From Marsupella aquatica (taxonomy: Eukaryota > Plantae > Marchantiophyta), in NCBI GenBank assembly GCA_973895155.1, contig OZ316894.1, forward strand, positions 17,700,563 through 17,764,562: a DNA stretch of 64,000 nt, read 5' to 3'. The position numbers were made by a program, and so were the translations under genes. This document shows positions 13,247 to 51,348 of this stretch, piece after piece. Below the pieces are notes generated by a model. That model was not told where the DNA came from, made no database searches, and was given only the letters and a program-made list of their open reading frames with translations. Numbering within the stretch: position 1 is the first letter of the stretch; each line of letters begins with the position of its first letter.

Positions 13247-14281
13247 ATGAGTGATTCGGAGGAGTTTTTTGAAGACGTGGAACTTGAAGCACGAGGATCA
13301 CCGCGGAGGTTTCAGGGGCAGAGAGAGGAGCAGGAGGAAGAGCACGTGACACCGATACCATCACCGGTGCGGCGTGTGGTGGAGGAAGCAGTACTACTAC
13401 CGGAGCTCACGGTAAAGAAGAAGATGGGGACTTTCAAGCTTGGGGGACCCAAGTATGAAGTGACAAAGTATGATGGGCGCTCTGACTACTTGCTATGGGA
13501 GAAGCAGGTGAAGGGAGTGCTTTATGCGTCAGGGATGGGCCAACTGCTGAGCCCTCGTGAAGACGATGTTGATGAGAAACAATGGGACCGCATGCAGGAG
13601 CAGGGAGTGTGGTGTGTTACACTCTATCTCATGCCTCCCATCATCAAGCAGTTAGGTGCACATAAGGATTGCATGTCCTTGTTTGTGGAATTGCAGAGCA
13701 AGTATCACCGCAAGGAGTTGTCGAACCGGCTCTACACTTCCTACAAACTGATGAGTTTCAGGATGAAGGAATCTGGTACGAAGTTGCAAGACCATGTGGA
13801 TGCTTTCAACGACATGGTCGTTGACTTGGAAAACCTTGGGGAGACTTTGAATGATGAGACGAAGGCTCTGCAGCTTCTTAGTTCATTGCCTCCATCTTAC
13901 CAGTCCCTATCACGAGTGTTATTGCATCGTGATAGGGATACCATTTCATACAATGACGTGGTAAGTTCTCTGCTTAGTGATGATCTTCAGCAGAAGATGC
14001 ACATCACGTCACAGCCTTCATCATCTGGTGCTGCCCTCAATGTTAACCGTGGGAGGAGTATGCAGCGACCAACTGGGGACCGTAGAACCCAGTTTAGATC
14101 TAAATCCAGATCTAAGTCCAAGGGTAAATCCCCTCAGAGGAGGCAGGTGACATGTTGGAAGTGCAACCAAGTTGGACACTTCAAGCGAGACTGTAAGGGA
14201 AAGGCAGCGGAAACTTCATCGGCAAATGTGGCTAGGGCTGATGGAGAAGCTGATTTACTCAATGATGAGTATGTTTTATGA
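13247..14281 (+). CDS. gag: Copia Gag (344 aa, open frame ending in TGA)
   Basis: KYDGRSDYLLWEKQVK N-terminal motif, gag core (LLSSLPPSY) and CCHC zinc knuckle CWKCNQVGHFKRDC. Confidence 0.9.
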   Translation: MSDSEEFFEDVELEARGSPRRFQGQREEQEEEHVTPIPSPVRRVVEEAVLLPELTVKKKMGTFKLGGPKYEVTKYDGRSDYLLWEKQVKGVLYASGMGQLLSPREDDVDEKQWDRMQEQGVWCVTLYLMPPIIKQLGAHKDCMSLFVELQSKYHRKELSNRLYTSYKLMSFRMKESGTKLQDHVDAFNDMVVDLENLGETLNDETKALQLLSSLPPSYQSLSRVLLHRDRDTISYNDVVSSLLSDDLQQKMHITSQPSSSGAALNVNRGRSMQRPTGDRRTQFRSKSRSKSKGKSPQRRQVTCWKCNQVGHFKRDCKGKAAETSSANVARADGEADLLNDEYVL

Positions 14282-17200
14282 AGCCGGGGGTATGCCCTGT
14301 GCACGTCATCTAGGAGAGCAGATGATGTGTGGATTCTTGATTGTGCTTGCTCTTTTCATATTTGTTACATTCGTGAGTTTTTTCAGTTCTTACTCTGTTT
14401 CAAACGGTTCAGTTCTGATGGGAAATGATCACTCCTGTCAAATTGAGGGAATTGGGTCTGTGAAGATTCAAATGTTTGATGGCGCTGTGCGCACAGTGTC
14501 CGGAGTCAGGTATGTACCTGGCATGCGTAAGAATTTGATTTCACTTGGTGTGTTGGATTCAAATGGTCATCAATGGAGCGTTATTGATGGTGAACTTCAA
14601 GTCAGGTCGGGAGAGACAGTGATTTTGAAGGGGAGTAGACAAAAGAATTTGTATGTGTTACAAGGCAATACTGTATGTGGAGAGGCCAATGTAACCAAGT
14701 CTCACGAGGAGATGACTCAACTGTGGCATTCACGGCTAGGCCACATGAGTGAGAAGGGTTTGGCTATCTTACGGAAGAATGGACTCATTTCTGATTTGCA
14801 ATCTTGTAAATTAGAGTTTTGTGAGCATTGCATTCTTGGAAAGCAGCGTCGTCGTGCTTTTGGTGTTGGAACTCATCGTTCCAAAGCGGTTCTTGAGTAC
14901 ATACATAGTGACGTGTGGGGTCCATCCCCGACTCCCTCACACTCTGGAAAGTTGTACTATGTATCATTTATTGATGATTACTCAAGATTTGTGTGGATTT
15001 ATTTCATGACGCATAAGTCTGATGTCTTGTCCATTTTTAAGAAGTGGAAGGCCCAGGTGGAGAATCAGACTGGAAACACGATCAAGTGTTTGGATACAAG
15101 GGTGAAGAGTCTGAGGTCAGACAACGGCGGGGAGTACACTTCAATGGAATTTGAAGAGTACTGTTCAGAACAGGGGATAACTCGCCATCTCACCACAGTT
15201 TATACTCCGCAGTAGAATGGTGTCGCTGAGAGGCTCAATCGGACACTGTTGGAGCGGTCACGGAGTATGTTGAGCCAATCAGGTTTACCACAAGAATTTT
15301 GGGCAGAAGCTGTCAATACCGCAGCTTATTTGGTAAATCTTTCTCCTTCTAGTGCTATCAATTTCAAAACGCCGTTTGAGATGCGCTATAAGCGGCAAGC
15401 AGACTATCATGGCTTGGTAATTTTTGGAAGTGATGCATATGCTCTCACACCAAAGCAGAATAGGACCAAGTTGGATCCTACCTCCAGGAAATGTATTTTT
15501 CTTGGGTACCAGAGTGGTGTGAAAGCCTATAGGCTATGGGATCCTATTGCCTGTAAGCTCGTTGTCAGTAGGGATGTTTCCTTCAATGAATCCAGATTAT
15601 TGAAGGAGGGGGAGAATACTCAGGTCTCCCGTACTGACAAAGGAAAATCTCCTATCCCGGATCTCGTTGAGGGGGAGATTGGTTATGAGGTGCATGACCG
15701 GAGAGAAGGAGTTGCTCCAATTATGGAGCTGGTTCCTGTGCCAGAGGAACCAGAGGAGTTTGTTGATGCTGGTGAGCAACAAGTGGATGCTGTTGAGCTT
15801 CAAATTGTACCAGCACACGCAGATCAACCGGAGTCATCGGCTAGAAGAACATCTGGTCGCACTGTACGCGCTCCATCAAGGTATGGACAGTGGGTTGATT
15901 CATCTCAACTGCAAGAGGATGATTTTACAGCTGATGATGAGGGTGATGCGTTAATTTTGGAAGAAGGAGAACCTTCTTCATTTCATGAGGCAAGTGCTTC
16001 AAAAGAGAAGCAGAAGTGGACTGCAGCAATGCAAACGGAGATGCAGTCACTAAAGGACAACAAAACTTGGGAGCTTGTTAAGCTGCCTAAGGGTCAGCAA
16101 GTGGTGGACAGCAAGTGGATTTACAAGCTGAAGGATAATTCCATAGGAGGTGGATCGAAGGTCTACAAGGCTAGATTGGTAGCAAAGGGATTCACACAAG
16201 AGAAAGGTGTGGATTACAATGAGGTCTTCTCACCAGTTGCTAAGTACTCTACAATACGACTATTGTGTGTACTTGTTGTAATGTTTGGTCTGCTCCTAGA
16301 TCAGATGGATGTTGTCACAGCTTTCCTCTATGGCACATTGGAAGAGGTGATCTTCATGAGACAACCGCTAGGTTTTGTGAAGAGAGGACAGAAGGAATTG
16401 GTTTGCAGATTGCTGAAATCCTTGTATGGGTTGAAGCAGTCACCAAGACAGTGGAACAAGCGGTTTGACGATTGGATTCGGTGACAAGGTTTTCACAGAA
16501 GTGTATTTGACCCTTGTGTGTATTTGAAACCGGTGAAGAATGTTGTCTTTGGGTTCATTGTTTTAGTACTTTATGTGGATGACATGCTAATTGCAGCCAA
16601 GGATAGGTCTGAGATTGTTAAGCTCAAGGCACTGCTTAGTGCAGAGTTTAAGATGAAGGACTTAGGGCCAGCTAAGAGGATTTTGGGTATGAAGATCACT
16701 AGGGACTTGGAGGCTGGCAAGCTATGGTTGACGCAAAGCAGTTATGCGAGGAAGGTAATTGCAAGGTTCAACATGGAGAATAGCAAGCCAGTAAGTACCC
16801 CGTTGGCTCCACACTTCAAGTTATCATCAGCGTTCTGTTCTATGGATGACACAGAGAAGGGGTTGATGTCAAAGGTTCCATATGACAAGGCAGTGGGGAG
16901 TCTCATGTATTTGATGACTTGCACTAGACCTGATCTTGCCATGGCTATGGGCAAGGTGAGCAGGTACATGTCGAATCCAGGGAAGGTACACTGGGAAGCA
17001 GTGAAGTGGATTATCAGGTACTTGAAGGGTACCGTGGATCATGGTCTTTTATTTGATGCGAATGCAAAGAATGCTAGATCATTGATTGGCTATGTAGATT
17101 CTGACTATGGACAAGATTTGGACCGAAGGAGATCAACAACAGGATACGTGTTCACACTTGGCGGTGGATGCATAAGTTGGAGGTCTACTTTGCAGAAGTG

Positions 17201-17555
17201 TATTGCTCAGTCTACTACAGAAGCGGAGTATGTTGCAGCTGCGGAAGCAGCAAAGGAAGCGATTTGGTTGGATAGACTTATCACTGAAATGGGATTGCCA
17301 CAGGGGAATGTGAAGCTCCATTGTGATAGTCAAAGTGCGCTCCACCTTGCTGTGAACCAGGTGATGGACAGCAGAGTGAAGCACATTGACGTCAGGTACC
17401 ATTTTATCAGGCAGGCTATGTCTGATAATTTGTTTGAGCTAGTCAAGATTGATGGTAAACTCAACCCGGCTGACGCATTTACCAAAGTGATTCCTTTGGA
17501 GAGTTTCTCTAGACACCGTGACGTATTGCAGGTTTTGCAATTGCATCACAAGTAG
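14282..17555 (+). pseudogene. pol: Copia Pol (protease-integrase-RT-RNaseH), disrupted
   Basis: PR WILDCACSFHIC is in the gag frame, followed by a +1 frameshift in the T6 run 14378-14383. IN: HHCC (LWHSRLGH...CEHC), HSDVWG, LRSDNGGEY and PQ*NGVAER (TAG 15213-15215). RT: KARLVAKG, QMDV, TGA 16482-16484, YVDDML. RNaseH: YVDSDY...STTEAEY...KHID. Confidence 0.93.
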
Positions 17556-31551: not shown

Positions 31552-34281
31552 TGGTATCTACTCGGGAAGAATTTCTCAGTTGTTGTCTGAGCAGCAAGCT
31601 ACTTTTCTACGCGAGGTAGATCTTGTTGCTGTTGTAGCTAGGAACCACGGTGAACAGAACGTCTTGTAGTTTACTCAATGTAGAAAGAAGTTCTAAAATT
31701 CAATTCCTAGCCCTGAATTGCCTCCTTCTTTGTCCCTCTGGGAGGGACTTCAAGCTGAAGAAAGTTGTGCCTGTTTGCAGTAGCGTATTTCTTCCCTGTG
31801 GTTTTATTTGTATTAAAGGTTTGCATTTCGATAGTAGCACTTCATTTTTTGATATATTTCTTGTCGTTTTGATAGAGCAGAACTCTGAATTGTCGGTTGT
31901 TGTGCGAATCCATCTCTTCGCTTCTCCTTCTGATCGTAAGGTATGTGTCAAGGATGCTGCTTGAAGACTAAATGATATAGTCATTCTCTGTAATCTTTTG
32001 GTAGCAGCTTTGCTGCTTTACTTCTGCTCACATCAGAGCACCGACAGCACTTGAACCTTCCACGGTAAGTCTGATCGGAGCTGCAGCTATACACAAGCTG
32101 ATCAGCCTTCCACATACCACTTTCCTTGCTATATGTGGATTTTTGGAAAGAATTTGTACTTACGTTATTATTTTACCCAACAGGGGTGTGTATCTCAGCA
32201 TATCTCTACATTAAGCAGGCGCTCCTCTCCGTAGGTGTGCATTCAAGCGTCTCGTCTTGGCTCACGAGGTGTACTGATGATGACACTCGATGTGGCCCCC
32301 AGCAATTTTCTTAACCAAACCATTGGGCGAAATGTAAGCTATAACTCCTCAGCTTAAGATGGAATCGGGAACGGATATTGCAGGTCCTGGCCACCAGTGT
32401 AAGCATTTCAACGCCAAGGAGGGCATCATAGAATCAAACCAAAAACTGATCCCTTCGAAAAAATAGTCGGACTTCTCCAATTGCGAAAGATGGTACAATA
32501 AACAAACTAGATCATATACTCCCTGCAAATCCACTTCAAACCATGTGGATTCATTTCGGTGAGATGGTGTGATTTAAACTAAGAATACTGAGGTAGCCAA
32601 TGCCAACATCGTATCTACAAGTGATTGCCTCTTTGCAAATCCAAGGACAGAAGCACAGGGTCCCAAGACAAGCTATGCACGAGCATTGATGTCTGGAATG
32701 GGTGACTGTCCCTATTTGGAACTGTAGATGACATTTATATCACATTCATAGATGTGAAGAGGTGTATGGCCCAGTGGATCCACCAAATGAGAGAGTGGAA
32801 CCCCTACATTCTGGTGCATTGGAATGTACTCAGAATCTCGAGTGCGGCTGAGCACTCCCAACCCCCCAACGCCCAACTTTTCCCAAGCCTAAAAAAAGAA
32901 TCTTGGATCCCTCGGAGCATTTGATATCTGGCCCACGCCACAAAAGGGGCATGCCAGTCCGAGGCAATCTTGATAACTTGTGAATTTCAAACCGAGTGAA
33001 CTACCAGCTTCGGTTCCAAACGCAGGCAGACCTCTGGGAGGCAGAAGAGACCCTGAACTGCATTCGTTGGTGTCAAGAACAGTAAGATCAAGGATTGGTA
33101 CGAGTAGCAGTAGCCCAACATCACTCTCTGTTTGGACTTAAGTTGGCCATTTCAGTTGTTCTCTCCCTCTCCCGTCCCCATTTTGTACAACATCCTCACA
33201 TTTGTAACCTTTGGGATGACAAATTCCTAATTCGTTCATCAATGTATTCATAAAACCATGATTCGGACTTTCCAACCACTGGCATGTGAAGTGTTGAACT
33301 TGTCATCCTCTGCGCATTCAGTCGCACAGTGTTGAACGTCAAATTTCTCCAATATGGCATCAAACCTCTGCTCCTTGGACAGCCGTTTCGTCAAAAACTT
33401 ATTTAGAATCTAAGTAACGGTCTCTGAAATGTGTGTACTACTCTCAAAAGCAGGCAAGCTACAACTGAAGTTGCTTCCAAATAGAGGGCTGAAAAGCAAA
33501 CACTCGTAGTGATGAACGTTGAACTTAGTCGTGAAGTTCAAGTAACAACTCGTGTCTCTTCAGGAACCTTAACCGTGAATGAAAGGGCTCTACTGTAGTG
33601 CGCTTTCATGATTTGGGTTGATTCAGTTGTGATCTGCTCTCGGGCCCTGAAAGAAAGGACGTTTGTTTCCCCCTAGTCTTGGGAACAATCTTAAATCCAT
33701 TTTGCATTTGAAAAGGGTAGCAGAGCAGAGGCAGCTTCTGGAGAGTCAAAACGCCGATCGCTTTCTCGAAGGAGGGCACTGCAGGACGCTCCACGTTAAC
33801 TACGCTCAGAGAAGGAATCGTCGTCATTCTGCCAGCGTCATCTCGCCATTTGGCTCTAATTGGAAACCACATTGTTCAGGGACCAGTTTCCGTTTCGTTC
33901 TCCCTTCCGATATAGACTCCTAGGCTGCTCAGCTCGTATCAACACCAAACCAAGCGAACGGAGTCGTTGCATCATTTTCGAGGGAGTCGGTCACACAACC
34001 GGGACCTCTCTCTGAGGTAAGTGTAGGGAGAAATTTCGGAATGAGGTTTAAGGGGGGAGTGCTACGAGGTAGTCATCTACGAGACAGGATGTGATCGCCT
34101 TTCAATCAAAATTCATAGTCTGACGGAAGCAAAAGTACAGGTGATGTCTCGCAAACCCGTTTCTGTGGCCCTATACCAAAATTGGGCTCAGGAAGAAAAC
34201 AAAAGGAGGGATTGGGAGTCCTGTACTGCATTTCGTTCGCTGCAGTGAGGGAGGAGGGTCGTCGTTGTGAGGACACGCGAG

Positions 34282-35952
34282 ATGGACGTGCTTGGGTCAT
34301 CGATGGAGAGCAACCAAATGTCCCTGGCGTTTGAGGATCGGATTTTCGACAAGAAAGAGGGCCGTGGGGGACGGATCGGGTGCACGCTCGTCACAGGGTT
34401 TTTAGGTTGCGGGAAGACGACGCTACTGCAGCATATTTTGCAGAACCGCGGGAGCTTGCAGATCTGTGTTCTGGTGAACGAATTTGCAGAGGTAGATGTG
34501 GACTCTCTGCTTCTGGATTCGACTCGGATTAATTCCTCGCATGGACTGTCCTGCGTCTCCCTTGCAGATGGATGTGCCTGCTGTGCCAAGATGGGGGACT
34601 TGAAGGAGGCAGTCCGCAGTGCGATGAGCAGCAAGCACAACTTCGATTATGTAGTGATTGAGACTTCCGGGCTGGCTAATCCTCTTAAGATAGCCGAGGA
34701 GCTGGAGGAGACCGGCATCAGGCTGGACCTTGTGGTGACACTGGTGGATGTGGAAACTCTGGACACCATTTTAGAAATTCCGGTGGCCAGGCAACAGCTA
34801 GCTATGGCGGATATTGTTCTCATTAATAAATGTGACTTGACTTCGCTGGGGCAAATATCAGATGCAGAAGATCGTATTGAACAAGCCACCGACGGAACCA
34901 AAGCTGTACGCTGCCGCTTTTCAAATGTTCCGCTGGAACTTGTGCTGAATGTCACCTTGCCGGATCCGTCTCAAAGCTTAGCGACCACCACTGCTAACTC
35001 TTCAGACGGTTTTTTGTCACATGAGGCGGCAACGCCAATTTTTGGCAGAGAATTTTCAGGCACTGTGGTCAGGCAAAGAGACAACGACCACAAAAGACTG
35101 GAGAAAAACATTCAAAAGCGAGACCCTAAGGTTATAGAATTGGGCGTGCACCTGTCACAATTGAGCGTGCATCAGCATGAGCATGATCCCCAAGTTGTTT
35201 CAAGCAGATTCTCCTCTGATGCGCCAGTATCCTTGGCAGCATTTCAAGACTTTGTTGTATATCAGCTTCGTTCAGCCCAGGGCTTGCTTAGGGCAAAAGG
35301 AGTGGTTTGCTTCGAGGAAAGCAGGCCTACTAGGCACTTCTTTCATTTCAGTGGGAAAAAAAGGTCTGAGGCGGTGTTCGCTGGCCCCTGGGAGAGCCAA
35401 GCCCGAACTGACCTGGTTTTTATTGGCCGAGATAAAGCAGAACTTGAGTTGCTCAGATTTGGACTTTCAGAAGCAACAGTTCCCAGAATGGATCCTGATA
35501 CTGGCATGGAGGCTTTACTACAAGCGGCAGTTACTTCGGCAGAAGAGTTTGCAAGGCTCGTATGTTCTGATACCAGATTCAAAGTACACAAATCTCGACC
35601 TGGGAGTGTGGCGAATGGCCAATCGGACATGGTTGCACAAACGATGGTGATGTTTGGCCTTGTTGGGTCATCTCTGCGAGGCGTTCATGAGGGAGATCTC
35701 AATGCGAGTCTGATGCAAACAGTGAATGGACGAGCTTTGATGTTTCTGTCAACGGGATCATCGTTGAAAGCAGGTGGTTGGTTGCAACTCTCGTTTGGAT
35801 CTAGCTTTAGTCCTCAAACTGCTTGGTGTGAAATTAAAACTGTTGCAACCGCGGTCATCGCAAAAGCTTTCCGGGAGATCTGCCCATGCAGGTGTGACAT
35901 GGTTGCACAGATGCACTCACATCATACTGGAGAACATCCTATCAAAACATGA
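34282..35952 (+). CDS. COG0523/CobW-family (G3E P-loop GTPase) putative metallochaperone with C-terminal extension, ~556 aa, intronless CDS
   Basis: Walker A GFLGCGKT, VNEF, CxCC motif GCACC, Walker B IETSG, G4 NKCD, His patch HQHEHD and CobW_C motif LLRAKG. First ATG is at 34282 (the ORF track opens at GTG 34267). A 5' UTR intron is likely at 34017-34245. Confidence 0.92.
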   Translation: MDVLGSSMESNQMSLAFEDRIFDKKEGRGGRIGCTLVTGFLGCGKTTLLQHILQNRGSLQICVLVNEFAEVDVDSLLLDSTRINSSHGLSCVSLADGCACCAKMGDLKEAVRSAMSSKHNFDYVVIETSGLANPLKIAEELEETGIRLDLVVTLVDVETLDTILEIPVARQQLAMADIVLINKCDLTSLGQISDAEDRIEQATDGTKAVRCRFSNVPLELVLNVTLPDPSQSLATTTANSSDGFLSHEAATPIFGREFSGTVVRQRDNDHKRLEKNIQKRDPKVIELGVHLSQLSVHQHEHDPQVVSSRFSSDAPVSLAAFQDFVVYQLRSAQGLLRAKGVVCFEESRPTRHFFHFSGKKRSEAVFAGPWESQARTDLVFIGRDKAELELLRFGLSEATVPRMDPDTGMEALLQAAVTSAEEFARLVCSDTRFKVHKSRPGSVANGQSDMVAQTMVMFGLVGSSLRGVHEGDLNASLMQTVNGRALMFLSTGSSLKAGGWLQLSFGSSFSPQTAWCEIKTVATAVIAKAFREICPCRCDMVAQMHSHHTGEHPIKT

Positions 35953-38227: not shown

Positions 38228-39678
38228 AATTAATGTGCTAGCAATCTCGAAAATATATCAGTACAATTGCAAGCAAAGTCCAAAATGCTGGAAACAGTTT
38301 TGTAGAGAGATCTATTTCAACATATCTCAACATGAGGCTCCCTATCCATGATTGTAAATACAGGGCTTCTATCTAGACAGAGCTCCTGTAGATCGGGGAT
38401 TGTCGTCCTCTTCGTACATCTCAATTTGTCAAATGCCAGTTTTGTGCAGGACATATGGATGTGTACTCACATAAAGGGACCAAATCAAGCGTTGTCCTCG
38501 TGCCCACTTAAAGCTATTCAATGATAAAACGAACTCTCGAAAGTTACCCGTTCCGGGTTTGGAGCTTTTTGTTATTTTGCAGTCTGATGTATATTTCGAT
38601 TCGAGATACCGAAGAGTGTTATTTCGTCTGGTGGTGGTTAACGTAATGTGTTCATGAATACCTACAAAGTATTAACGAAAGTACCAGTTCTGTTTCTTGT
38701 AGGTTAGAGAAGCCGTTCTTCAACTTTACAGAGTGTTTCGTAGCATCACACGACGATCCCCTCTTACTTGCCGTGGGTGCATTCCCTGGCATAGGCTAAA
38801 TTCAATCTGGAATTCGGCATACACCGTATGAACCACTCATCGCGAAAGTAAACCCTAAACTAGTACCACTTCAGAATGTCAAGTTGCGGATTCACGGTTA
38901 CAGGTGGTTCCAACCCCGAACCACGGCTATGGATTCATTCATGAACAAAGTCCGAATGCAGGGTAATGCCTGTGCTATACCAGAGGTAGAAAATATCACA
39001 ATGATCTAAGAAATGAGGTCAAGATATGAGAGAACAAATTCATGAAGCAGTGAAGATTGAACTGGGGATCGATAATACTTCTTGCCTCTTCTTCCTCCCA
39101 GGGCTGCCTGTTTCAATTTGAAGCTTGTAATTCACTCGGTAACCAGTATTCAACATTGCCTCGGACTGGCTCGACCCTTTCATGGCCTGGGCACGAGCCA
39201 GATGTTAAAATAAAAGCCTACAACGCTTAAAGAGTATATACAAATGCACCTAGAAATCCTGGGTTTCTATAAACCTAGCGAATGCTCACCCGTATTCCAA
39301 ATTCAGGGTAAATTACGTTACACCAGAATCTAAGAACTGAATTGGCAATCTTTTGCTGCAACTCCGGTGCCAAAAAATATGTTTCGAAGGTTTCAATATA
39401 CATTAAAGGCTCAACCCTGCAGCCACAATACCCTCAATGCATCACATTTGAGAACTTCGGAATATTTCATTTCGTTTAGTGGCATGTTTACAAGTACCTA
39501 TTTGCTAAGTCTCGCCGTGTACTAACTGAGCAGTTCTAAAATTCCTGTACCAGTACTGACTGAAATGCATCTCCTACTTTCAAAACCAGACAAGCCTCTC
39601 AACTAAAACTGTCCAGCGCTTCGAAACACAGGTTTGGAGAACCACAATTTCATGAATTTTCAGCCACAAAGGTTGACA

Positions 39679-42600
39679 TCAAGCCAAGTAAAACTTACAT
39701 GCCTTTTCAGGAGCCTTCACCTGCAGTGGCGACTGGGGCCCGTTAACAGCTAGTGCGATTTCGTCATTTGGCATCAGTTGGCTGACACTCCGAGCAGGTA
39801 ACAATTTTCTTTTTCTCTTCTCCTTCGAAGTTGCATCAACTGCGTTCTCTTGGTCTAGTGTTGGTAAGAGCTCAGCGGGGGCTGGATGTGAAGGGACAAG
39901 GAAACGCCTATTGTTGGCGGAACATACTGGATTCCAGTCGAGACCTAATGGCAAGATGACACCGGCAGATGATAGTTTGTACTCTGAGACAAACCTGAAG
40001 GGTCCTGCTGTGCCCTCTTTGGAGAAAGCTGCCAGTGGGGACTCCGCAGATGCCGCACTAACTGTGCTCTCCTGGTCAAGCGGTACCAAGAGTTCAGGAG
40101 TTGCAAATGATGGGTCACAACCTATACCTTTCTCTGAACTGTGTAAAGGAGAAGTGTCTGAGTTTCCACCGGATGCAACAGGGGAATCAGTTGAATCTGC
40201 CATGGTATGAATCTTCTTTTCAACTGATTTTGGGCTCCCTTCTGAACAGAGGCCTGGCCCAGAACACTGAGATGGCCCATTAACCCTGAGCTCAAAAGCC
40301 ACAGCTGCTTCTTCCAGGCTGTTAAAAGTACCCAGGCTAAACTGTTTCTGTTGAACCTTATCATAATAGGAGGCTACCACACTTGCTCCTGTCTCTTGGA
40401 CTTCCAGGCACCATTGGCTTCCATGGCAGGCCTCCGGTTCTGGGTCGAAGTCAGTACTCGCCATTTGGGCTGATGAATAATCATCTTCCACCGTCTCAGC
40501 AACGCTTCCACAAGCCCCAGGGTTCTCTTGACGTTCAGAAAAAGGCTTTGTCATGGGTTTCTTCTGCGACAGAGAGCCTAAGCCTTGAGAAGATGAATGT
40601 ACAAGATTGGACTTGAACCCCTTTGCTTGTCCTGAACTTCTTCTGGCACCTGACTCAATCGAAAAATCTGTCGCATTGGTATCTGCCTCCACAGACTCTG
40701 TGCTGACATCTCCAAGGCTTAAATCTTCTTGTGCATTCAGCTCGCCCGAGCTCCCGTCAGCGAATCTTTGACTTACTTGTGCTTCCCCGTCCGTCAATAA
40801 AACTTGGGCAGAACAATCGGGCTCTTCAGAGGCCACACTATCCTGCTTGGGATCCTTTCTCCTACCTTTCACCTCTGCTGGTGAATGCACCATTGTTTCG
40901 TCGGTACTTTTGCTATCATCCTCAGCCGTCTCTTCCGTATCAGTAACTCCTAGTTCAGCGATTGAGAAATTTAGTTTGGCGGCCGCACCATGCTGTTTGT
41001 AGGCGACCTCATCATAAGCCCTTGCGGCACCCTCTGCTGTCAAAAATGTTCCTAAGTAATTGTGTTTTTTGGTCTCCGTGTTGTAGTAGATTGACTGAAA
41101 TTTTCGGCCATTGCAGTAAACTCCTCTGAAGTCTGCCCGACGTGTCAAACTTGGCTTTTTGCCGGAGGACTTGTCCCCAGAAGCTTTAGCGTCGTTCGGT
41201 GAGGTAGGTTCGTGCGAACGCAGTGACCGAGCAGATACCCTCAGAGAACCATCTCCCAAAACAGATTTGGATGGTTTCTCTTTAAGGTCAGCATCAGTAG
41301 TAGACGTATTATTGTGTCCATCATGGTCTAGCGAATAATCGTCTCCCGGAAGGTCAGTCACGACGTCAGCGGCTGAAGAATCTGCAGCATCACAAGCCTT
41401 AGCTGCTTCTTGCACAGAGCTATACTTTCCAACAAGTTTGTACTTCTGAACACCCACATCATAGCGCTTCACCATGTACTCTCCAGGGCCGGTTCGCTCT
41501 ATTAAGCATTTTTTTGGAGTCTCAGTAGCGCTCTTCCCTTTGAGACCGTCCTCGCCTCCACCGTCTTGCAATCGTGCTCTGAGTAAAGGTAACTCCTCAG
41601 GAAAATTCAGACGCACACACTCTCCTCGTTTGACAAAAGCCACTTCATCATATGCTCTTGCGGCCACTTCTGCTGAGTCATACATGCCTACATACAGGTG
41701 CTTCTTAACTTTGGGAAGGTAAATCTTAGCTTTGAATCGCCCACTTGGTGTAGATTGCACTCCCAAGTAGGAAGTTCGCTCAAGCATCTTCTTTTTTCCC
41801 GACTTTGAGTGACTAGAGGTACCACAGTTAGCGGTCCCCTTCGGTCTAGAATTGATCCCTGATCCACATCCATGTGATTTAACATAACTGTCATCTTCAT
41901 TGCAAGTGGTATCATCCTTATCTTGGCTGCCTTTGCTCTCCTTCCCTGGGGTAGACTCATCAGATCCCAATAAAGTGCCTTTCAGAGACCGAGCCAACTT
42001 TCTTCTCGAAGATTTGAATGGCTCTATTGACACTTTGTCAGGTACGTCAGATACAGCAACAGCAGCATGATTGGTTCCACTCTTATCCATCATGGCTCTT
42101 CGCTTGGAGGTAGTTTTATAGACACGAGCATATTCAGACTCAATATAGCAGTCTGCACCAATTCTGGACACGAAATCCCCTCTTGAAGCCCGTTTAGCGG
42201 GCTGGCTAGACTCCCAGCGCTGATCCGATTTCCCCTTCTCTTCCTGGCATTTACGAGACTCGTTGCTCACTAAATCTGGAGTCTTGATGGACTTACCTGC
42301 GGACGAGCCCCCACTCTTCTTCTTCACCTGAGCATTTAACGCCGGGTCTACCTTCGCACTTCGCACGCTAGCAGGTAGCGCCAGAACCGGAGTCTTAGTT
42401 AGACCTGGTTTTTCAATCGATTTCGAGCTCCTTGCTGCCCTTTCAACTGTATACTTCGCTTCCGCTGCCGAGACTTTCTCGCTATCAACGACTGCTTTGC
42501 GTTTATCTGCCCTTCTGCATCCCTCAGCTGCAACATGCACTTTCGCTGTTTGACACGCCCGTAACCTGAAGTTCCTCGATGCATGTTTTGCTTTCCGTGA

Positions 42601-45600
42601 ATTATCTAGAAAAGCCCCTGCTTTCTCTTTTATGCTACTTGATGTATTACTTCCCGTGTAAGGCTTACCTGCGCCAATCCTAGAACCACTTTGAGAATCC
42701 CTTTGCTTAGTAAGCCACTGGGCGATTCCCTTAGCCTTGCCTTTCTTGGTCATCTCATCGTGGGACTCATCTTGCACCTTGGCCTGCAATTCCTTCATGT
42801 CAGGTGTGTTCAAATTTAAAGCTGCTCCCACAATACTTGCTTCTTGTTCCCTTGAACGGTTTGTTTCTAGAGCAGAACATAGCATATCCTCGTTAACCTT
42901 CTTTCTCTTATTCCTGTCCAATAAACTGGCTTCATGTTTACCAGACATAGATTTTCTTAAACCCGAAGAGTAGCTCGGCTTCTCTACAGGGTCATCTACA
43001 GATGATGGCATTGGGCTTAAGCCTCTAAGATTGTCCACCTTCCTACGTTTGTCAAATGCAAGTAACTCTCTAATGGCAAAGTTTCCAACAGGAGGATCAG
43101 ATGTTATGCACACCTGCACATCTCCCTCTGACATCTCCAATTTTGATGCTTCGCTCACAGTGCTTCCATTTCCGTTCGTGGCTATTATATCCGCCTCTCT
43201 AACCGAAGTTTCCATGAATTCAACAGCTTCTTCATCGTCCGTTGAACTCTCAGACAAACTGTCCAGCGCCTGTACAACAGCCGTGGAGATGCTCTTAAAC
43301 TTCTTCTTTTGACGACTCCCCCGCGGGACTGAGTTTCCGCCACTTGCCCCAAGATTTGACGTTTCCACTTGTACCGCTTGCGGACCTGCCTCTCCCTTAA
43401 CGTCCGAACGTGTCAAGCCGACAACCTCCACATTGCCTACTAGGGACCCATTGTTCTGTCCTGCTTCGTCAACGTCATCCGGCACAGCGGCTCCAGCTTT
43501 GTGAATCCGTCCGGTACATGTTCTAATCTCCTTCATTTCCTTTCTGATTGAGCTCTTCCTCTGACGTCTGATGGCAAATAACTTGCCCCCCCGACACTTG
43601 AGCTCATAGTCAGGTAAATGTAGTGCAGTCTCCCGAGATATCATAAAAGCCTGTTCTTCCTTGCTAACGGGAGACGGCTCAGACAACCCATCTTCGGATT
43701 TTTTGTTTCCTGACGATAAGTGGACGGGAGGAGAATGCCCATTGACAGCAGTCTCTGTTTGACTTGACTCCAATCCAAAAGACTGTTCATGCATTTCAAT
43801 TCCGCCAACAGAACATTCCTCAAAGTCAGCCTTGATTCCCTTACTCAACTTTGGCCTTTTCTCTTCAGCCAAGACATCTAAAAGGGGGTCGTCACTCCTT
43901 TTGTTATTGCAGGATCTGCGTTTTCTAGAATTTTCCTTAATGCCAGGAATCTCCTCGGGAGATTCTGCCGGCAAGCCGACTGAAGTGAAGTTCGTCATTG
44001 CTCCCTCTCCACGGTACATTCTTGCAGCCTGGTCATATGCGCGCGCAGCAGCCTCCTCGGTAGTGAATGTACCCAGCCACAAACGTTTACCTTCAGGTGT
44101 ACGAATTTCTGCACCATAAGCACCCCAAGGTCGCTTCCGAACCCCGACATACTGGGAGAAGAACTTCCGCTTTCCTGACTGTCTTTCGCTTGCAGCATCT
44201 GGCCCTCCCGTGTCTTCCTTTGCCTTCGTTCTTGGCACAGTCCCTCTTGGTGTTCTGGCCTCGCCAACTGAGCATTTGAGCCCCATACTGGTCATATCCA
44301 GCTCTCCAAAATCTACACTGCGGCTTAACCACGGAGGGCTTTGGCCAACACCTACCCGATTGTCATCCACCAGCTCCACATCTATAGAACATGTGCTGTT
44401 CGGCAACGGTGATCTCTCACTTGCAGAACTCTGTGGAAACAAGGAACTGTTCCTACACACCTTTTCAACAGTAGTACTTGCCTTCTTTGGTGCAAAATCG
44501 CCCTGGTCAATAGATAAATTGCCCACCAAGCTTGTGCAGGGATCTACGAGAACCCCTCCTGGTGCAACAGCACTTGTCCCTTGATTCCTGGTAGTGGAAG
44601 GAGAATCACTGCCATCCAAGTTCCTGGACAAAGCTGGGTCATAAGCACGAGCTTCTCTGCTATCTGGTCTACCTACGAGATCACCCTTCTTCACGTTACT
44701 GTGTGTGTGGTCAAATTTGAATTGCTTGGCACAATCTGCTGTTGTCTGAAGGCTATCTTGTGCTCCCTGTTTCGAGGAGTCCTGTAGGACAGGAAGAACA
44801 GTATTTATACTTCCACCTCCATTCGAGACCGTCTCCGGCAGTAACGAGGATTCAGATACACCGGGAAAATTGGACGTACGGCTCATTCTTACAGCCTTAC
44901 TCAAGATGTGGGCTCCTCCAGTCAGAAGGTTGTTCCCTGGAAGGCCCTTGTGATCTTGGGTGCGAGTGGAAATAACAGCAGAACAAATGATCTTTGGGGG
45001 TTCAGCGACTTCAACATGATGAGCTGCCGTCGCAGCCAAGACGAGCAAAGTGAACTCCCCGATGGAAGGCCTGTTCACACTAAGGTGCTTCTTCAAAGTT
45101 TGCGGACTCAAGGCAAACCCCTGATGTGTCTTGTGCATTTGACAGAACCTGCCATAGAATCCGACAACTTGATTAGAATTATGGAAATTGATGCTGAGAT
45201 CCAAACGCACCTAAGAAGAATGCTGATTGACAAGACCCACATACTGGGCGCTTAAGTCAAACAGCAACATGAAAAACTTGATATGGCACATCCTGAGTGC
45301 TGGGACAGGAGGAGCTGTGGACAATACCTAGAGATACTCCGTTAAGGATGCTACCTTGCTATCTTGCTATAAAGTGATGGATTAGTACCAAGACGCAAGA
45401 ATCATACCTGATATCATCACTCTTGAGGGAAACAGGAAAGAGACAACGGTCCCTTGAGAAACCCTCCGTATAGTCACATTGCTTGTAAGGAGCAAGAGCA
45501 TCCTCCAAGATATGCCAGATACAGAACTGGTGGCCCTGGACGCAATACTGAGAGCACTTTTGTTTCCGTGACTGGCAGTATAGAGACATAGAAGAGCTTG

Positions 45601-48600
45601 ATTTCGTAGTCACTGGATTAAATCTCGACTTTGAAGGAGAAGGACCTATTGTAGAAAGAGCTGAACTTGACTTGGGGGCTCTCATACTTAATGGTTCCAA
45701 CAAGTTTTCCTGCGGGTCATTCACTGATAAAGCCCCCGACACTGAACCCTGCCCGTCTCCTCGAATATTGTGTTTCCTTCCTGAGATTCTGGAAGACAAT
45801 ACTGGAGACAGTAACTTCGGATCTAAAGTGGATGTATTGCCCTGAGAAGAGCTCCTCCAAGACGGAATCCCCGATGCTTTCCCAACCTCCAATTTTTTAG
45901 TATTTTCCGTTCCACATTTTCCTATCCCCTTTGGCGTCTTCTCATAATGCACCGATTCCTCAATGGTAAAACTTCTTGCAAGTGCGCTTGCTGAGTCCTC
46001 GCCAGTCAATTCAGGATTGCTATCCACAGGGTTTTTGCTCATGAAGCTTTTCTCAGCATCTGCATTGACCTCACTTTCATCCTGAATTCTGTTCGATCCA
46101 CGTTGAGGCCTGTTCCTGAGCAGAATCTGCCAGAATGAAATAAACGTTTCAAAAACTTTCTGATACCTATGGTCTGACAAGTGTGTGCAGATCAGTTAAA
46201 CACAAAATTCACATCCAAATTCTGTGCCGTTCATGCAATGAAAGGACTGCAGAACTGTTTTACAAGCTCAACGAACAAAGGCATACAGTCAGCTTTGATT
46301 TTCTTCTCAAGACATATCTGCCATAAATGATAAGAATTACTTCAAGTATTTCCTCACTTGACTCTGCTTCCGGAAGATATGTATAAAGAAAAAACATCGA
46401 TCAGCATCTAACTACTTGTAGCACTAGGATACTATAATTTTTACAAGTTCACAAAAGCGAGTCAAGCAGACTACTTGATTTTTTTCTGAAGTAAATCTGT
46501 TCCACAACAGGAAAAGCATTAAAGAATTGACCTGTTGTGAACGGGGTCGGGATCTGATTGCACGACGAAGCTTGGAATTTATAAATTGAACCCTGAAGTG
46601 ATGCGCAGATACAATCTCAATGAGCAAAACATCTCCGATTTTTGCATCATGAGATTCAGCAAATTCAGGCCATCCACGGATTAGAGCCAGCCTTCGTCCA
46701 GATTGCTCCCAAGCTGCCCACTCAACTCTCCAAGTATCACCCTTAACATCTTCCAAAGTGGCCACTCCTTCCGTTCCCTTAATGAATTGCTTCATGAACA
46801 TAACTGGAAAAGACTGCAGGGCACCCAGAGATCCGTCAAAGTCCGCACTTGACAAAACAACTGTTGCCACATCTTTAAGCCTTGTACGTGCACAGGGAAT
46901 GGAGACCTCACAAAACCAATGGTAGTTTTCGTAACTCTCTAACTTATGGTCGTGCAGTACTAGTTCAAGACCGACAGTACAGTATTGCTCTCGCTTGCAG
47001 TAGAGGAAAGGAGGATCATTTTGCAGAGACTACTGGACGTCGTCCCGACGTTTACGAGAATTGTAGGTGCAGATTCTTGACAGTACGAAGACTCACCAGC
47101 TTGCCAGTGGGACCAAGACAACGCTTCTGGAGAGCCCTTGCAAACGATGGCACTTCTGTCGCCAAATCCCTTGTAAGGCATGTAACCATGTGCCTATTAG
47201 GGCTCAAAAGCCCCTCACCAACATAAGGTCGAAACATCACTTTTGAATCTTCCTCCGGCACGATAGTCTGCCGAACACAATCACAAGGTCAAGCATGATT
47301 ATGACTCAGCCTGCACATTACATAAATATTCCATTTCAAAACTAACAACTTGAAACAACGTTCGATCACCTTCACCGCGAAGGAAAGGGGAGCCACATGG
47401 ACCACTGCCAACTGCATTGCAGCTCATTATAAACGCTCATGGCACAGAAAGCAGATATAACATGACAACTACAGCAAGGCCAGGAATACAAACGTTACAC
47501 CCACAAATATTATTTCGTGTCCTGGAAGACACCAGTCCTCTCCATTCCAATCGACATGCCGCCTCAGCTTTGTCACGTTAATAGATACCTCTGAGCCATC
47601 ATCCAATAGGACCTAGAACACGGCACCACATCAGTGAGATGGTGTTTGCACGCAAGAAGCAACAACGAAAAACCTTCAAATGTTATCTAAGTTCGAAACA
47701 ACTGTCAATGAACTGAATGTTAACTAGCAAATATGCAAAAGAGGACAGTGAGATTCTGCCATACGCACCAAAAATTGCTTGGGCAAGACTTTCTTGATCC
47801 TGCCTGGCCACCAAGCATTCTCGATGTAAGTATCGACCATGTCATTCATGGATAATGCCTTGAAGGGCAACAAACTCCAGTCCCCATCGTGATTGGCAAG
47901 CTCAAGCTGTTTCGGAGGCCTCGGTCGAATAACTCCACACTGAGAGTGTGGTCCCTCTTCTGTGATGACAAGACCAGGCTCTTCACAGACCAACCAGTGG
48001 TCGGCTGCACAACAAAGTAGCAAGTCAGCTTCGGATGCAACCGCGTAACACATCAGAAAACAGCTAGAATTCCTACCTCTCAAACCAAGTCCAATGCGCA
48101 TGGTATTGATCTTACCAGCTTAATCATCAGGCTGTCAGAAACGATGACAAGGAAGTTCACTTGCATCCTCCCTTGCAGTTTCTACAACTATTACAGCTTA
48201 ATACAAAATCTGGCCGCCAACATAGCAACCAGATAGTACAGGTTGAGAACATACACAGTTCGATAAGGATGACAACTAATGCACGAAGAAATTGCCAGAG
48301 GATGTTTCGGAAGAGGCTAACACTACTCACGTGTATCCTTCACATTGTCATACGAGATGCAGTACCGGAGGAATCCATTCATTTCTTCCACCTTGACAAT
48401 CTGCAAAATCAGGAAATCCAAGGTTTCAAGGTACACCACCGGTGCACAGCAAGCTAAGCCTACAGTGTGCTTTCATAGGTTATGCGACTTGCAAACAATG
48501 GGCGTACAACTTTCGGTACGAAAATGATCTTGATCCACGAACAATGTTGTTTGATGTGAGACAAGACCAACCTCGGCTGCAACCCAGGCATGGCGATATC

Positions 48601-48691
48601 GATCCAAGCCACCCATGATTTCGACACAGTCGCCAGGCCCATAACCACCCCATTTTGTTGGACCGGTGTCATTATCCAATGCGTCTCCCAT
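39679..48691 (-). CDS. Multidomain nuclear protein: tandem Agenet + B3 + zf-C3Hc3H + multiple AP2, 8 coding exons, ~2391 aa
   Basis: Exons 48691-48572, 48400-48331, 48004-47769, 47612-47505, 47267-47097, 46813-46532, 46126-45408 and 45148-39679. All junctions are GT-AG with consistent phases (0,1,0,0,0,0,2), total 7176 nt. Agenet: [46 protein letters not shown]3: [40 protein letters not shown]2: [26 protein letters not shown]. Confidence 0.85.
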
Positions 48692-51348
48692 GGTGTCTCG
48701 ATGTCCTCAATCAATCTGTACTAGAAACTTCATGTGATTCAAACAGTTCCCATCTAACAACATCATGCTTTGCTGATGATGGAGCCGCATGAATGTCCTC
48801 TACACTCTGAAGCATTTGGACGGGTCCAGTCTCCACGTACTGCAGGAGAGAAATTTCAAAACATTTCAGAACAGTGTCAAAATAAAAGCACTCACTCAGC
48901 AGACCCCTTGACAAGACACCTACATGTGTATTGCACAGCCTTTCTCATCAACCCATTACAAAATGTCGATGCAATTTAAGACACACAGAAGCCCAATTTG
49001 TCCAATCGTTTGCGCTGATCATGAACCCTTATACCTCTCCTTAAATCCATATGAGATGAATAATAAGAGTAGTTGAAGAAGTAAGACCCGAGTAGCATCC
49101 CAAGAGATCTCATATGCGCCCACGACCTATCTATTTATGTAGCAGCCATGAGAGCCTCTGGATCTCGTCAATGAACTGAATATTACTTATTTGTAGTAAG
49201 TAATGTGACTTCCTCGCTGCGAGTTGAAATTACCTACAAACCCTTAGAAACAGTTGAAACCATAATCCTATGCGAACCAGAGCCAGACTTCTAATTCTGC
49301 TCATGACTAATTTCTGGAAATAAATTTTCTACACATGCACAATCTGTAGCAATTGTCGACATCGTAGGTCTTTAAAATACCTCGACACCGTACTCCAGGA
49401 ATCATCCCCGCATTGTTGTCAAAGGCAACTCATAGATGTGTGTTCCTTTTCGAAGTTGCAAAACACGTAGCTTAGCAACCACTAAACGGACTATGCAAAC
49501 TCACATTGCACAGCATGACCAGGAAGAATCACATTGCGCTGCCTATCACTTCAATTCGACTCTGAAGAGATCAACGACGATAGAGGATAGTCCAGGAGAT
49601 CGGGACTCCGGCATGCAAGGTGTTGGAATCCAACAACCGACACTTTTTCGGCTCGGTGGGTTGATGCTTCTCCGGTTCGGCTGGATGTAACGATCATAAG
49701 GAATATATAACAACGTCCGAAATCATTGGGGTTGATCCGACCACACAAAGCAGTGACAGTAATACTGGACAGGAAATTCATCAGACGAACAGCGGAAGGA
49801 CTCAACATTGATCTGTTTTTAGAACAGGGGTTTAAAACAGTCAGACGATGAAATTGACACGTCAATGAAAGGAAAACGGAATGAATGAATGAATTGCTTT
49901 CAAATACCAGGCCAAGGTAGAGAATGAAGCCTTCTGCTGGGCTGACCTGGGTGCTGGCTGACATGACTGCAAGCGTGCATGATAGAGACATCATACAGAC
50001 TTCACGCTCCGGCGACGTGTAATTACGGAGTCGAAATATTGCGTTCAGAGACGGACGAGAGAAAGAAGGAACTACAGTAAGACTCTGTCCGACCCACGCG
50101 TCATGTGGAGGGAATCATAAAAACAGGTTTTCTTGACATTCAGGTTATGGATGGCTTTCGCCGATGGGACGACCAGCAGAGAGAACGAGAAAGAACGAAC
50201 AATGACGCGGAGAGATTCAACAGTCCGGACTCGACGAAGTCCGCAGACGCGATGAATGACTCGTGGAGGGAGGTGAACCGTAATAGACATGTAGTACGTT
50301 CGTTGATTCCAGGATTTAGCACACACAAAGATGATGCAAAGATTCTCCAGGATGCTGAAAGAAGACCCGCCCGCGCGAACCTGTAACCGGCAGGCCGGAG
50401 AGTCGAGGGTTCCGAGAGCAATGTACATACCACTATGCCCCACCATGGCACACACGTGAAGAACGACGGAGAACAGGACTTCGAGCTTCAATGAGTGAAC
50501 GACGTGATCAGCGGCAAGGAGGGAGGCCAGAGCACTCGCAATTGCCTGATTGACGAACAGATAGAGTGAACACGAGACCCCAACAGAAGGGTCCGGCCGT
50601 GACGACGAACGATCCAACTAACCACAAAGGCACCCGTTGTCCCCCCCCTCCCTCTTCGTTCGTTCGTTCACGCGCAAGGTCAGGCCTCACGTAACCAACT
50701 CGATACAACACAACAGCCATCGCAATGTCTTTCTTACCGTCAGACACCACCGGCCCTGCTTCGCTCGCAAGCTTCGATTGATACAAAATCGATTGATACA
50801 AAATTTACATACAGAGCAATAAAGACTGGTGAAAATGCTGCGTCTGCAGAGGCTCCGCTGCCGATGCAGTGCATGAAAGACTCTCTCCTCGCCGTGGATC
50901 CAGCAGCTAAAGGCTAGCAGCCAGCAGCACCCCTCCGTCGCGGGACGGATGGACGGACGTACCCGAACAACAACAATGTCCACAGCACGCTCGCCAGACG
51001 ATGGAAAATTATCGACCTCCGACTGGATTCGACACATACCGTGTTATGCACTCGGTCTTGGACAGGTTGTTGTTGCCGTTGTTGCTGCTGTCTCGTCCCG
51101 GAGACGAGGAAGAAGAAGAAGACCACCGCGACGACGCAGGCGCCGCGAGCAGCAGCAGATTGGCCTTGACAGCCAGTACAGAGCAAGTGAAGGAGAAAGA
51201 AGAGAGTCCCGTCGGAACAGCTCCAGCAGCGGCAGCAGAAGCCGACGACGCCCGACGCAGCGGTGGGTCTCGGGGGGCCAGCGAAAATAAACGCTGCATA
51301 TTCCTCCCTCCCTCAGAGCAGCAGCACCAGCAGCAAGCAAGCAGAGCC

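What the first reader, a model, noticed from the sequence alone, without database searches (positions are those of the whole stretch)
39679..48691. Giant reader + DNA-binder protein: Agenet-Agenet-B3-zf-C3Hc3H-(AP2)x3-5
Seen: eight exons splice with canonical sites and consistent phase into one ~2391-aa frame. It carries two Agenet/Tudor repeats, a B3 domain, a C3Hc3H zinc finger, and three intact plus two degenerate AP2 domains in low-complexity linkers. Known: Agenet domains read methylated histones, B3 and AP2 are plant DNA-binding folds, and the established AP2+B3 combination (RAV family) is short with AP2 before B3. Inference: this may be an undescribed scaffold that couples histone-mark reading, multi-site DNA recognition and chromatin-complex recruitment. 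I do not recognise this architecture from angiosperms.
Basis: partly seen in the sequence, partly recalled or inferred. Interest (0 to 1): 0.87.

Follow-up and report, generated by a model that had tools for sequence, protein, structure and literature searches.

The report
Liverwort Agenet-B3-zinc-finger multi-AP2 regulator
This gene, likely from a leafy liverwort, encodes a predicted 2,389-residue protein of a plant family already described in 2019 (Agenet pair, B3, zinc finger, several AP2 domains) that likely works as a DNA-binding gene regulator, while its supposed histone-mark pocket keeps only one of three key aromatic residues.

Summary
The gene is real. Eight GT-AG exons give the 2,391-aa frame. 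It is not undescribed: it is the orthologue of Marchantia MARPO_0093s0032 (MpAP2B3-2/MpREM3), reported in 2019 with Agenet, B3, zf-C3Hc3H and three AP2 domains in the TcA3Bz1 clade (PMC6781369). I found no functional study. Added here: six AP2-like units, not five; the family reaches conifers, ferns, a lycophyte, mosses and the alga Mesotaenium, with no flowering-plant member seen; the Agenet pair has the AGDP1 fold but only one of three cage aromatics, so methyl-lysine reading is doubtful; the first AP2 sheet is nearly invariant. A ~295-bp inversion inside exon 8 replaced ~98 codons with their antisense reading without a stop. Verdict: new member of a described, functionally untested family; likely a sequence-specific transcription regulator.

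The parts
51040..51274 (-). 5' leader exon (non-coding; its 5' end not determined)
   Evidence: X1 contig piece 51040-51274 joined to exon 1; GT donor at 51039
48840..51039 (-). 5'-UTR intron, about 2.2 kb
   Evidence: joint 48802>51040 with 39 letters between that match the start of exon 1; AG acceptor seen
48572..48839 (-). exon 1; coding from ATG at 48691; six upstream ATGs in its 148-nt untranslated part
   Evidence: start matches the liverwort orthologues
48331..48400 (-). exon 2
   Evidence: joint 48400>48572 CT..AC
47769..48004 (-). exon 3
   Evidence: joint 48001>48331 in the relative, 3 nt longer than predicted
47505..47612 (-). exon 4
   Evidence: joints 47610>47767 and 47267>47505, which fixes the donor
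47097..47267 (-). exon 5 (family-specific segment before B3 and start of B3)
46532..46813 (-). exon 6 (B3 core)
   Evidence: Pfam B3 E 1.3e-11; joints
45408..46126 (-). exon 7 (linker and most of zf-C3Hc3H)
   Evidence: Pfam E 1e-9; 259-nt skip
39699..45148 (-). exon 8, 5.45 kb (runs on to a stop at 39679 if the last intron is retained)
39403..39416 (-). exon 9, coding part, giving the WLSL end
   Evidence: joint 39415>39698 CT..AC, short side 29 letters; same end in C. fissa and Marchantia proteins
47523..48643 (-). tandem Agenet pair (aa ~17-95 and ~115-172); cage positions I124/W129/L145, with E150
   Evidence: cage residues from PMC6208443
46580..47240 (-). family-specific pre-B3 segment plus B3 domain (aa ~188-313)
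45019..45583 (-). zf-C3Hc3H (aa ~511-576) and conserved hydrophobic segment after it (aa ~597-612)
43981..44157 (-). AP2 unit R1, ERF-like, intact; sheet 90-100% identical in 15 of 15 land-plant homologues
42799..42975 (-). AP2 unit R2, degenerate here and in C. fissa, intact-looking in Riccia, mosses, lycophyte, conifers
42088..42147 (-). short conserved motif without a Pfam name (aa ~1570-1589), 55-95% identical in 15 of 15 homologues
41596..41775 (-). AP2 unit R3, intact, non-ERF sheet
41380..41517 (-). AP2 unit R4, degenerate, shared with liverworts and mosses
40960..41136 (-). AP2 unit R5, intact, non-ERF sheet
40279..40416 (-). AP2 unit R6, degenerate, seen only in liverworts
39820..40115 (.). 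derived inversion of about 295 bp inside exon 8 (aa ~2247-2345); the ancestral reading lies on the + strand and is still stop-free

Best explanation
This is a single gene for a member of the TcA3Bz1 / MpAP2B3-2 (MpREM3) family, and its protein likely acts as a nuclear, sequence-specific transcription regulator rather than a methyl-histone reader. Shown: the exon chain and domain order, kinship to Marchantia MARPO_0093s0032, six AP2-like units and the incomplete Agenet cage. Inferred: the nearly invariant ERF-like first AP2 domain picks the target sequence (likely GC-rich); B3 and the intact units R3 and R5 add further DNA contacts; the zf-C3Hc3H finger and the hydrophobic segment after it, kept in every full-length member including those that lost B3 or Agenet, would be the docking surface for a co-regulator or chromatin complex; the Agenet pair is an accessory interaction module that several lineages do without.
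For: One frame, GT-AG; intron-skipping joints in a relative's RNA-like contigs, with one 2,768-nt contig running from exon 1 into AP2 R1; 72% full-length identity to C. fissa CAM6094770.1; PTQ32953.1/MARPO_0093s0032 lies in the 90% cluster of the next-best hit and is named MpAP2B3-2/MpREM3 and expressed in sporelings, thallus and both gametangiophores (PMC6174852 supplement rows). R1 sheet 90-100% identical in 15 of 15 homologues while two sampled linkers are 5-32% identical outside Calypogeia; R1 aligns with ERF96 and AtERF1 at E 7e-18 and 6e-16. AP2 units mostly group by position across species. zf plus R1 are the part shared by all full-length land-plant members. Basic clusters such as KRKRK at aa 2346 fit nuclear import.
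Against: No binding, localisation or mutant data for any member were found. R1 has Gly/Thr where ERFs have Ala/Asp (positions 14 and 19 recalled), so its target may not be the GCC box. The zinc-finger role is by family resemblance only; PMC4588387 states that experimental evidence for the domain's function is lacking. RNA evidence is from contigs of a relative, in a run only guessed to be RNA; a contig is not a single molecule. The Mesotaenium member has a much more diverged first AP2.
Confidence: 0.65

Rival explanations
1. Reader-plus-binder scaffold: the Agenet pair reads a methylated histone tail and the protein couples that mark to DNA recognition and chromatin-complex recruitment.
For: Tandem Agenet fold closest to ADCP1/AGDP1 and AGDP3 H3K9me2 readers (Foldseek E 1e-8 to 3e-7 for the first eleven listed rows; profile E 1e-8 to 7e-6); W129 and E150 keep two AGDP1 contact positions; the pair is kept in liverworts and conifers; zinc finger nearest to KANSL2-type clusters (0.83-0.88, lead only).
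Against: AGDP1 cage Tyr122/Trp127/Phe144 maps to Ile124/Trp129/Leu145; Asp124 to Asn126 and Glu45 to Leu29. Conifers keep Tyr and Phe but have Lys/Arg for the Trp and Asn/Ser for the Glu. None of the 11 family sequences matched has all three aromatics. AGDP3 AGD34, with a similarly unconserved cage, does not bind H3K9me2 (bioRxiv 10.1101/2021.03.08.434320). Moss and fern members lack the pair.
Confidence: 0.2
2. Mainly a DNA-tethered accessory subunit of an INO80- or NSL-like complex (a KANSL2/INO80D-type finger fused to DNA-binding domains), with broad rather than gene-specific action.
For: zf-C3Hc3H occurs in NSL2/KANSL2 and INO80D (PMC4588387); finger kept in all full-length members; Marchantia gene broadly expressed.
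Against: One finger rather than two; no other INO80D/KANSL2 feature tested; strong conservation of the R1 sheet argues for specific DNA reading.
Confidence: 0.12
3. Two or more neighbouring genes (Agenet-B3 and zf-AP2) joined by over-eager exon chaining.
For: One X1 contig of low depth reads on from exon 6 into intron 6 to 46440, which could be a short Agenet-B3 form or unspliced RNA; Physcomitrium and Ceratodon proteins consist of the zf-AP2 part alone.
Against: Joints across introns 6 and 7 in one contig; single annotated proteins with the whole architecture in Calypogeia, Marchantia, Riccia and Cryptomeria.
Confidence: 0.03

Closest known systems
TcA3Bz1 clade of AP2/EREBP proteins, incl. 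Marchantia MARPO_0093s0032 = PTQ32953.1 = MpAP2B3-2/MpREM3 (PMC6781369; name from PMC6174852 supplement)
   Same: Agenet, then B3, then zf-C3Hc3H, then three Pfam-level AP2 domains; clear orthology.
   Different: Only the species; plus points the 2019 passages I read do not report: Agenet is a tandem pair and is also in conifers incl. a Taxus protein, three further degenerate AP2 units, members in a lycophyte, ferns, Sphagnum and Mesotaenium, and a lineage-specific in-exon inversion.
RAV (AP2-B3) transcription factors, e.g. TEM1, RAV1, MpRAV
   Same: Both AP2 and B3 in one protein.
   Different: RAV has one AP2 before the B3; here B3 comes first, with Agenet, a zinc finger and six AP2-like units.
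AGDP1/ADCP1 and AGDP3 tandem-Agenet H3K9me2 readers
   Same: Tandem Agenet fold, best structural matches.
   Different: One cassette only; cage 1 of 3 aromatics; fused to DNA-binding domains.
KANSL2/NSL2 and INO80D
   Same: zf-C3Hc3H finger.
   Different: One finger, not two; embedded in a plant transcription-factor architecture; complex membership untested.
REM/VRN1-type B3 proteins
   Same: Best non-family hits of the Agenet-B3 profile are multi-B3 proteins; the two looked up are VRN1-like.
   Different: Single B3 with a family-specific leading segment; single-domain scores for non-family B3s reach 55 bits against 77-160 for complete land-plant family B3s.

Membership tests
TcA3Bz1 / MpAP2B3-2 clade | three or more AP2 domains | tested here: met
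   3 Pfam stretches; 6 units with a family profile, shuffled maximum 2.6 bits against 48-89, scores lifted because the units enter the profile
TcA3Bz1 / MpAP2B3-2 clade | B3 domain N-terminal to the AP2 domains | tested here: met
TcA3Bz1 / MpAP2B3-2 clade | zf-C3Hc3H between B3 and AP2 | tested here: met
TcA3Bz1 / MpAP2B3-2 clade | N-terminal Agenet as in PTQ32953.1 | tested here: met
   62% and 66% identity to PTQ32953.1 in the two repeats; Pfam Agenet on the orthologues
TcA3Bz1 / MpAP2B3-2 clade | AP2 repeats group by position with those of other members | tested here: met
   R1, R2 (partly), R4, R5 and R6 in supported groups by position; R3 not recovered as one clade; 60 columns only
RAV | single AP2 followed by a C-terminal B3 | tested here: not met
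   order is B3 then several AP2; definition from PMC6781369 passages
AGDP1/AGDP3-type H3K9me2 readers | tandem Agenet fold | tested here: met
   model of the C. fissa N-terminus (mean pLDDT 57, Agenet strands mostly 68-88) matches 6IE6, 5ZWZ, 7YTA
AGDP1/AGDP3-type H3K9me2 readers | aromatic cage Tyr(His)/Trp/Phe plus Glu in the second repeat | tested here: not met
   Ile124/Trp129/Leu145 with Glu150, mapped by hand on the profile alignment to 5ZWX
AGDP1/AGDP3-type H3K9me2 readers | acidic residues for H3R2 and unmodified H3K4 (Asp124, Glu45, Glu89) | tested here: inconclusive
   Asp124>Asn126, Glu45>Leu29; Glu89 could not be mapped because of an insertion
AGDP1/AGDP3-type H3K9me2 readers | binding to H3K9me2 peptide | not testable with these tools
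   needs ITC or peptide arrays
ERF/DREB | a single AP2 domain | tested here: not met
ERF/DREB | base-contacting Arg/Trp/Glu residues of the sheet (identity of these residues recalled, not from a call) | tested here: met
   R1 keeps the R-x-R-P-W, E-I-R and R-x-W-L-G positions in alignment with ERF96 and AtERF1; R3 and R5 do not
KANSL2/INO80D chromatin-complex subunits | two zf-C3Hc3H domains | tested here: not met
   one stretch in each family protein scanned; definition from PMC4588387
KANSL2/INO80D chromatin-complex subunits | co-purification with NSL or INO80; WDR5-binding motif | not tested
   no genome held for partner genes; motif not searched

The most novel reading that the evidence does not exclude
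An ancient streptophyte regulator, present from the algal sisters of land plants to conifers but lost in flowering plants, that wires an invariant ERF-type DNA-reading domain directly to INO80/NSL-type chromatin machinery through its C3Hc3H finger, with an Agenet pair that binds a histone tail or partner by a cage-independent route and a row of AP2 units that decay at different rates in each lineage.
Probability: 0.2. Interest if true: 0.65.

Novelty: new member of a known kind. Interest (0 to 1): 0.32.

Why it matters
As an architecture it is already in print, so the finding itself is not a discovery. It matters modestly because the family is old (alga to conifer), keeps one AP2 sheet almost unchanged, has no member seen in flowering plants and no functional study in the papers I could search, and Marchantia has an expressed orthologue that can be knocked out. 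The residue-level result redirects experiments away from assuming H3K9me2 reading. The in-exon inversion is a clean natural case of about 98 codons being replaced by their antisense reading in a conserved gene.

Tried and rejected
Recalled moss gene 'MACRO2' as a possible match: it is a macrodomain gene, unrelated (listing only). Pfam on single Agenet exons: nothing, the repeats are split by introns. No whole genome is held for this window, so copy number and partner genes were not checked. No RNA holder listed for the window's own species. Alternative exon-4 donor at 47498 (2,393 aa): rejected, the joint and all five orthologues aligned use 47504. Word-index searches for shorter relatives gave only 7 of 2,230 and 1 of 467 candidates, those placed being liverwort- or moss-like fragments; too shallow to show absence anywhere. 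No solved structure matches the zinc finger. Low-complexity claim: not above shuffles; a SEG run through blastp printed no masking and was not informative. Coccomyxa (11 AP2), Closterium, Volvox and Brassica hits share AP2 only and were not counted as family; Botryococcus and Apatococcus hits likewise. Chara CBR_g50140 has an Agenet pair and one weak AP2 but no B3 or zinc finger: left open, not counted. Assembly error as cause of the inversion: rejected, DNA contigs of two studies span the breakpoints in the window's orientation. No earlier scan findings by words or sequence. The Atlas was used once with success, on a fern homologue's zinc finger; the AP2 R1 region was not searched there. No complex prediction was run. 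Papers read in passages without anything on this gene: PMC9520294, PMC11923412, PMC12526721.
Full report
1. Observation. Joining the eight exons 48691-48572, 48400-48331, 48004-47769, 47612-47505, 47267-47097, 46813-46532, 46126-45408 and 45148-39679 gives 7,176 nt, 2,391 aa and one terminal stop; all seven introns are GT-AG, 156-405 nt, and each has an in-frame stop. Pfam on the window's exons finds B3, zf-C3Hc3H and three AP2 stretches. The Agenet pair is cut by three introns and was confirmed through the C. fissa orthologue, 90% identical in both repeats.

2. Splicing. No run is on record as RNA for this stretch. One run guessed to be RNA (X1) holds a relative about 92% alike (170 other letters in 2,425). 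Its contigs skip introns 1, 3, 4, 5 and 6 at exact CT..AC ends, intron 7 with the exact length of 259 placed 3 nt off, and intron 2 with 329 instead of 326 nt. One 2,768-nt contig has listed pieces from 44068, inside the first AP2, through exons 8, 7, 6 and 3; its unlisted record positions (277 and 105 nt) equal exons 5+4 and exon 2 plus 35 nt of exon 1 as given by the joint table. A contig is not one molecule, but with single annotated proteins in Calypogeia, Marchantia, Riccia and Cryptomeria a split into two genes is unlikely. The spliced end gives 2,389 aa ending WLSL, as in C. fissa and both Marchantia proteins.

3. What it is. Exon 8 as query gave 27 proteins among 7,988 scored candidates of 1,002-3,189 aa; 21 of the 27 share family blocks and 6 share AP2 only. 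The best is C. fissa CAM6094770.1, 72% identical over the whole length, so the window is likely a leafy liverwort near Calypogeia (inference). The next cluster holds PTQ32953.1 = MARPO_0093s0032. PMC6781369 (section 15 read whole, other passages) describes this protein with three AP2, one B3, one zf-C3Hc3H and an N-terminal Agenet, as a member of a new subgroup founded on Taxus TcA3Bz1. The supplement of PMC6174852 (rows seen) names it MpAP2B3-2/MpREM3 and shows it expressed in 24-h sporelings (56-67 CPM), 48-h sporelings (21-31), thallus (32-37), archegoniophores (59-66) and antheridiophores (52-60). Searches for the gene ids, names and domain combination returned no functional study; the library lacks most subscription papers.

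4. Range. An HMMER profile of the Agenet-B3 part against 1.84 billion representatives gave 1,096 hits, of which the best 150 were listed. Of 142 new ids, 15 carried family-specific blocks. I looked up 10 ids, 7 of them family-like: Mesotaenium ME000150S01146, Taxus KI387_035996, an Adiantum protein and four unnamed; the three others were two angiosperm VRN1-like multi-B3 proteins and Chara CBR_g50140. The Mesotaenium protein has two B3, the zinc finger, the segment after it and three AP2-like units, without Agenet in its model, so the B3-finger-AP2 core likely predates land plants. The Agenet pair is in the five liverwort proteins and three conifer-type proteins, including Taxus; Sphagnum, fern and lycophyte proteins as annotated have B3 without it, though Diphasiastrum keeps a remnant of its last strand; Physcomitrium and Ceratodon have neither, while an unnamed moss-like protein keeps B3. 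No angiosperm member appeared. All 22 unnamed family-like proteins tested fell nearest to liverwort, moss, lycophyte, fern or conifer proteins, but that reference set held no angiosperm, and a member lacking Agenet and B3 could escape the profile; loss in flowering plants is likely, not shown.

5. AP2 array. A profile seeded with three window units and three vascular-plant units found six units in the window protein at aa 900, 1294, 1694, 1780, 1907 and 2149, all from the first round; the best score on 200 shuffles was 2.6 bits. R1, R3 and R5 are intact; R2, R4 and R6 are degenerate. A tree of 41 units from 10 proteins groups most of them by position across species, with only 60 columns, long branches for the degenerate units, and R3 not recovered as one clade. 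The R1 sheet is 90-100% identical in 15 of 15 homologues; two sampled linkers are 5-32% identical outside Calypogeia. R1 aligns with ERF96 and AtERF1 and keeps their Arg, Trp and Glu sheet positions, but has Gly and Thr at the two positions used to tell ERF from DREB (roles of these residues recalled).

6. Agenet pair. A model of the C. fissa N-terminus (7-sequence alignment, mean pLDDT 57, Agenet strands mostly 68-88) matches ADCP1/AGDP1 and AGDP3 cassettes best, as does the sequence profile. In RsAGDP1 the H3K9me2 cage is Tyr122, Trp127, Phe144 with Glu149, and Asp124, Glu45 and Glu89 hold H3R2 and H3K4 (PMC6208443, passages). Mapped by hand on the 5ZWX alignment, the window has Ile124, Trp129, Leu145, Glu150, Asn126 and Leu29. 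Other liverworts have Ile or Val, Trp or Tyr, and Leu; conifers have Tyr, Lys/Arg and Phe. None of the 11 family sequences matched has the full cage (one fragment gave no match, and the Chara row is not counted). The AGDP3 preprint (passages) reports that its cassette with unconserved cage residues does not bind the mark.

7. Zinc finger. Eight Cys and three His lie in aa 513-577; the finger is 48-94% identical in 15 of 15 homologues and followed by a conserved hydrophobic segment. The domain is found in NSL2/KANSL2 and INO80D, two copies each, and its function lacks experimental support (PMC4588387, passages). The Atlas gives KANSL2-type clusters at 0.83-0.88 for a fern homologue's finger, a lead only.

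8. Inversion. X1 reads 39820-40111 on the opposite strand to its flanks, and the C. fissa protein matches the window's + strand there at 57% over 111 columns. Re-orienting the piece in a script lifts identity to the C. fissa C-terminus from 69 of 189 to 114 of 186 columns, best with ends at 39820-39821 and 40113-40114. DNA contigs of two studies carry the window's orientation across the breakpoints (X3 in one piece with no other letters, X5 in two pieces; X2 may be the source), so it is not an assembly error. Marchantia and a decayed copy at 33753-34099 have the ancestral order, so the window's state is derived. A clean inversion keeps the downstream frame by itself; what is notable is the lack of a stop, seen in 99 of 4,732 simulated inversions of 292 nt in this exon. 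This hints that the tail (basic cluster and WLSL end) is needed, but it is one event, noticed after the fact. A short motif shared by the liverwort homologues inside the piece is lost from the protein.

9. Mechanism and verdict. Most likely a nuclear transcription regulator whose specificity rests on R1, with B3, R3 and R5 as added DNA contacts and the finger as a co-regulator dock (all inferred; confidence 0.65). The gene is a new member of a described family with untested function. Interest 0.32.

Noticed in passing
window 39820-40115: Derived ~295-bp inversion inside coding exon 8; both the antisense reading now used and the ancestral reading on the + strand are stop-free.
   Followed up: yes
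window 33753-34099 (- strand): Decayed copy (68% DNA identity over 228 columns, with stops and a frameshift) of the gene's C-terminal region in the ancestral order, about 6 kb downstream, just before a CobW-family gene.
   Followed up: partly
run X1 on window 44068-48572: A second, more diverged set of spliced contigs (depth 4-7) with the same intron positions: a paralogue or another species in the sample; C. fissa also has two copies.
   Followed up: no
window 46440-46531: One low-depth X1 contig reads from exon 6 into intron 6; the window frame runs on to a stop at 46424, which would give a short Agenet-B3 protein.
   Followed up: no
window 48692-48839: Six upstream ATGs in the untranslated part of exon 1, opening reading frames of 4-34 codons, a possible translational brake.
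   Followed up: no
homologues P0080, P0007, P0042, P0050, P0013, P0066: Moss and conifer members share a near-terminal motif of the form GE(L/F/I)LKAS.VL; from memory it resembles Sin3-interaction helices. Not found in the liverwort proteins.
   Followed up: no
Marchantia proteins P0002, P0003, P0036: They lack the whole R2 unit and its flanks (about 110 aa) that Riccia and Calypogeia have: a real deletion or a skipped segment in the annotation.
   Followed up: no
window 13238-17555 (+): Copia-type LTR retrotransposon coding region, interrupted by two stops and a frame change.
   Followed up: partly
window 34249-35952 (+) and 1157-2584 (-): Long single frames for a CobW-family GTPase and a Cys/Met-metabolism PLP enzyme.
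   Followed up: partly
Chara braunii CBR_g50140 (P0205): Tandem Agenet closest to this family among non-members, also with Ile at the first cage position, and one weak AP2 unit, but no B3 or zinc finger in a doubtful 3,315-aa model.
   Followed up: partly
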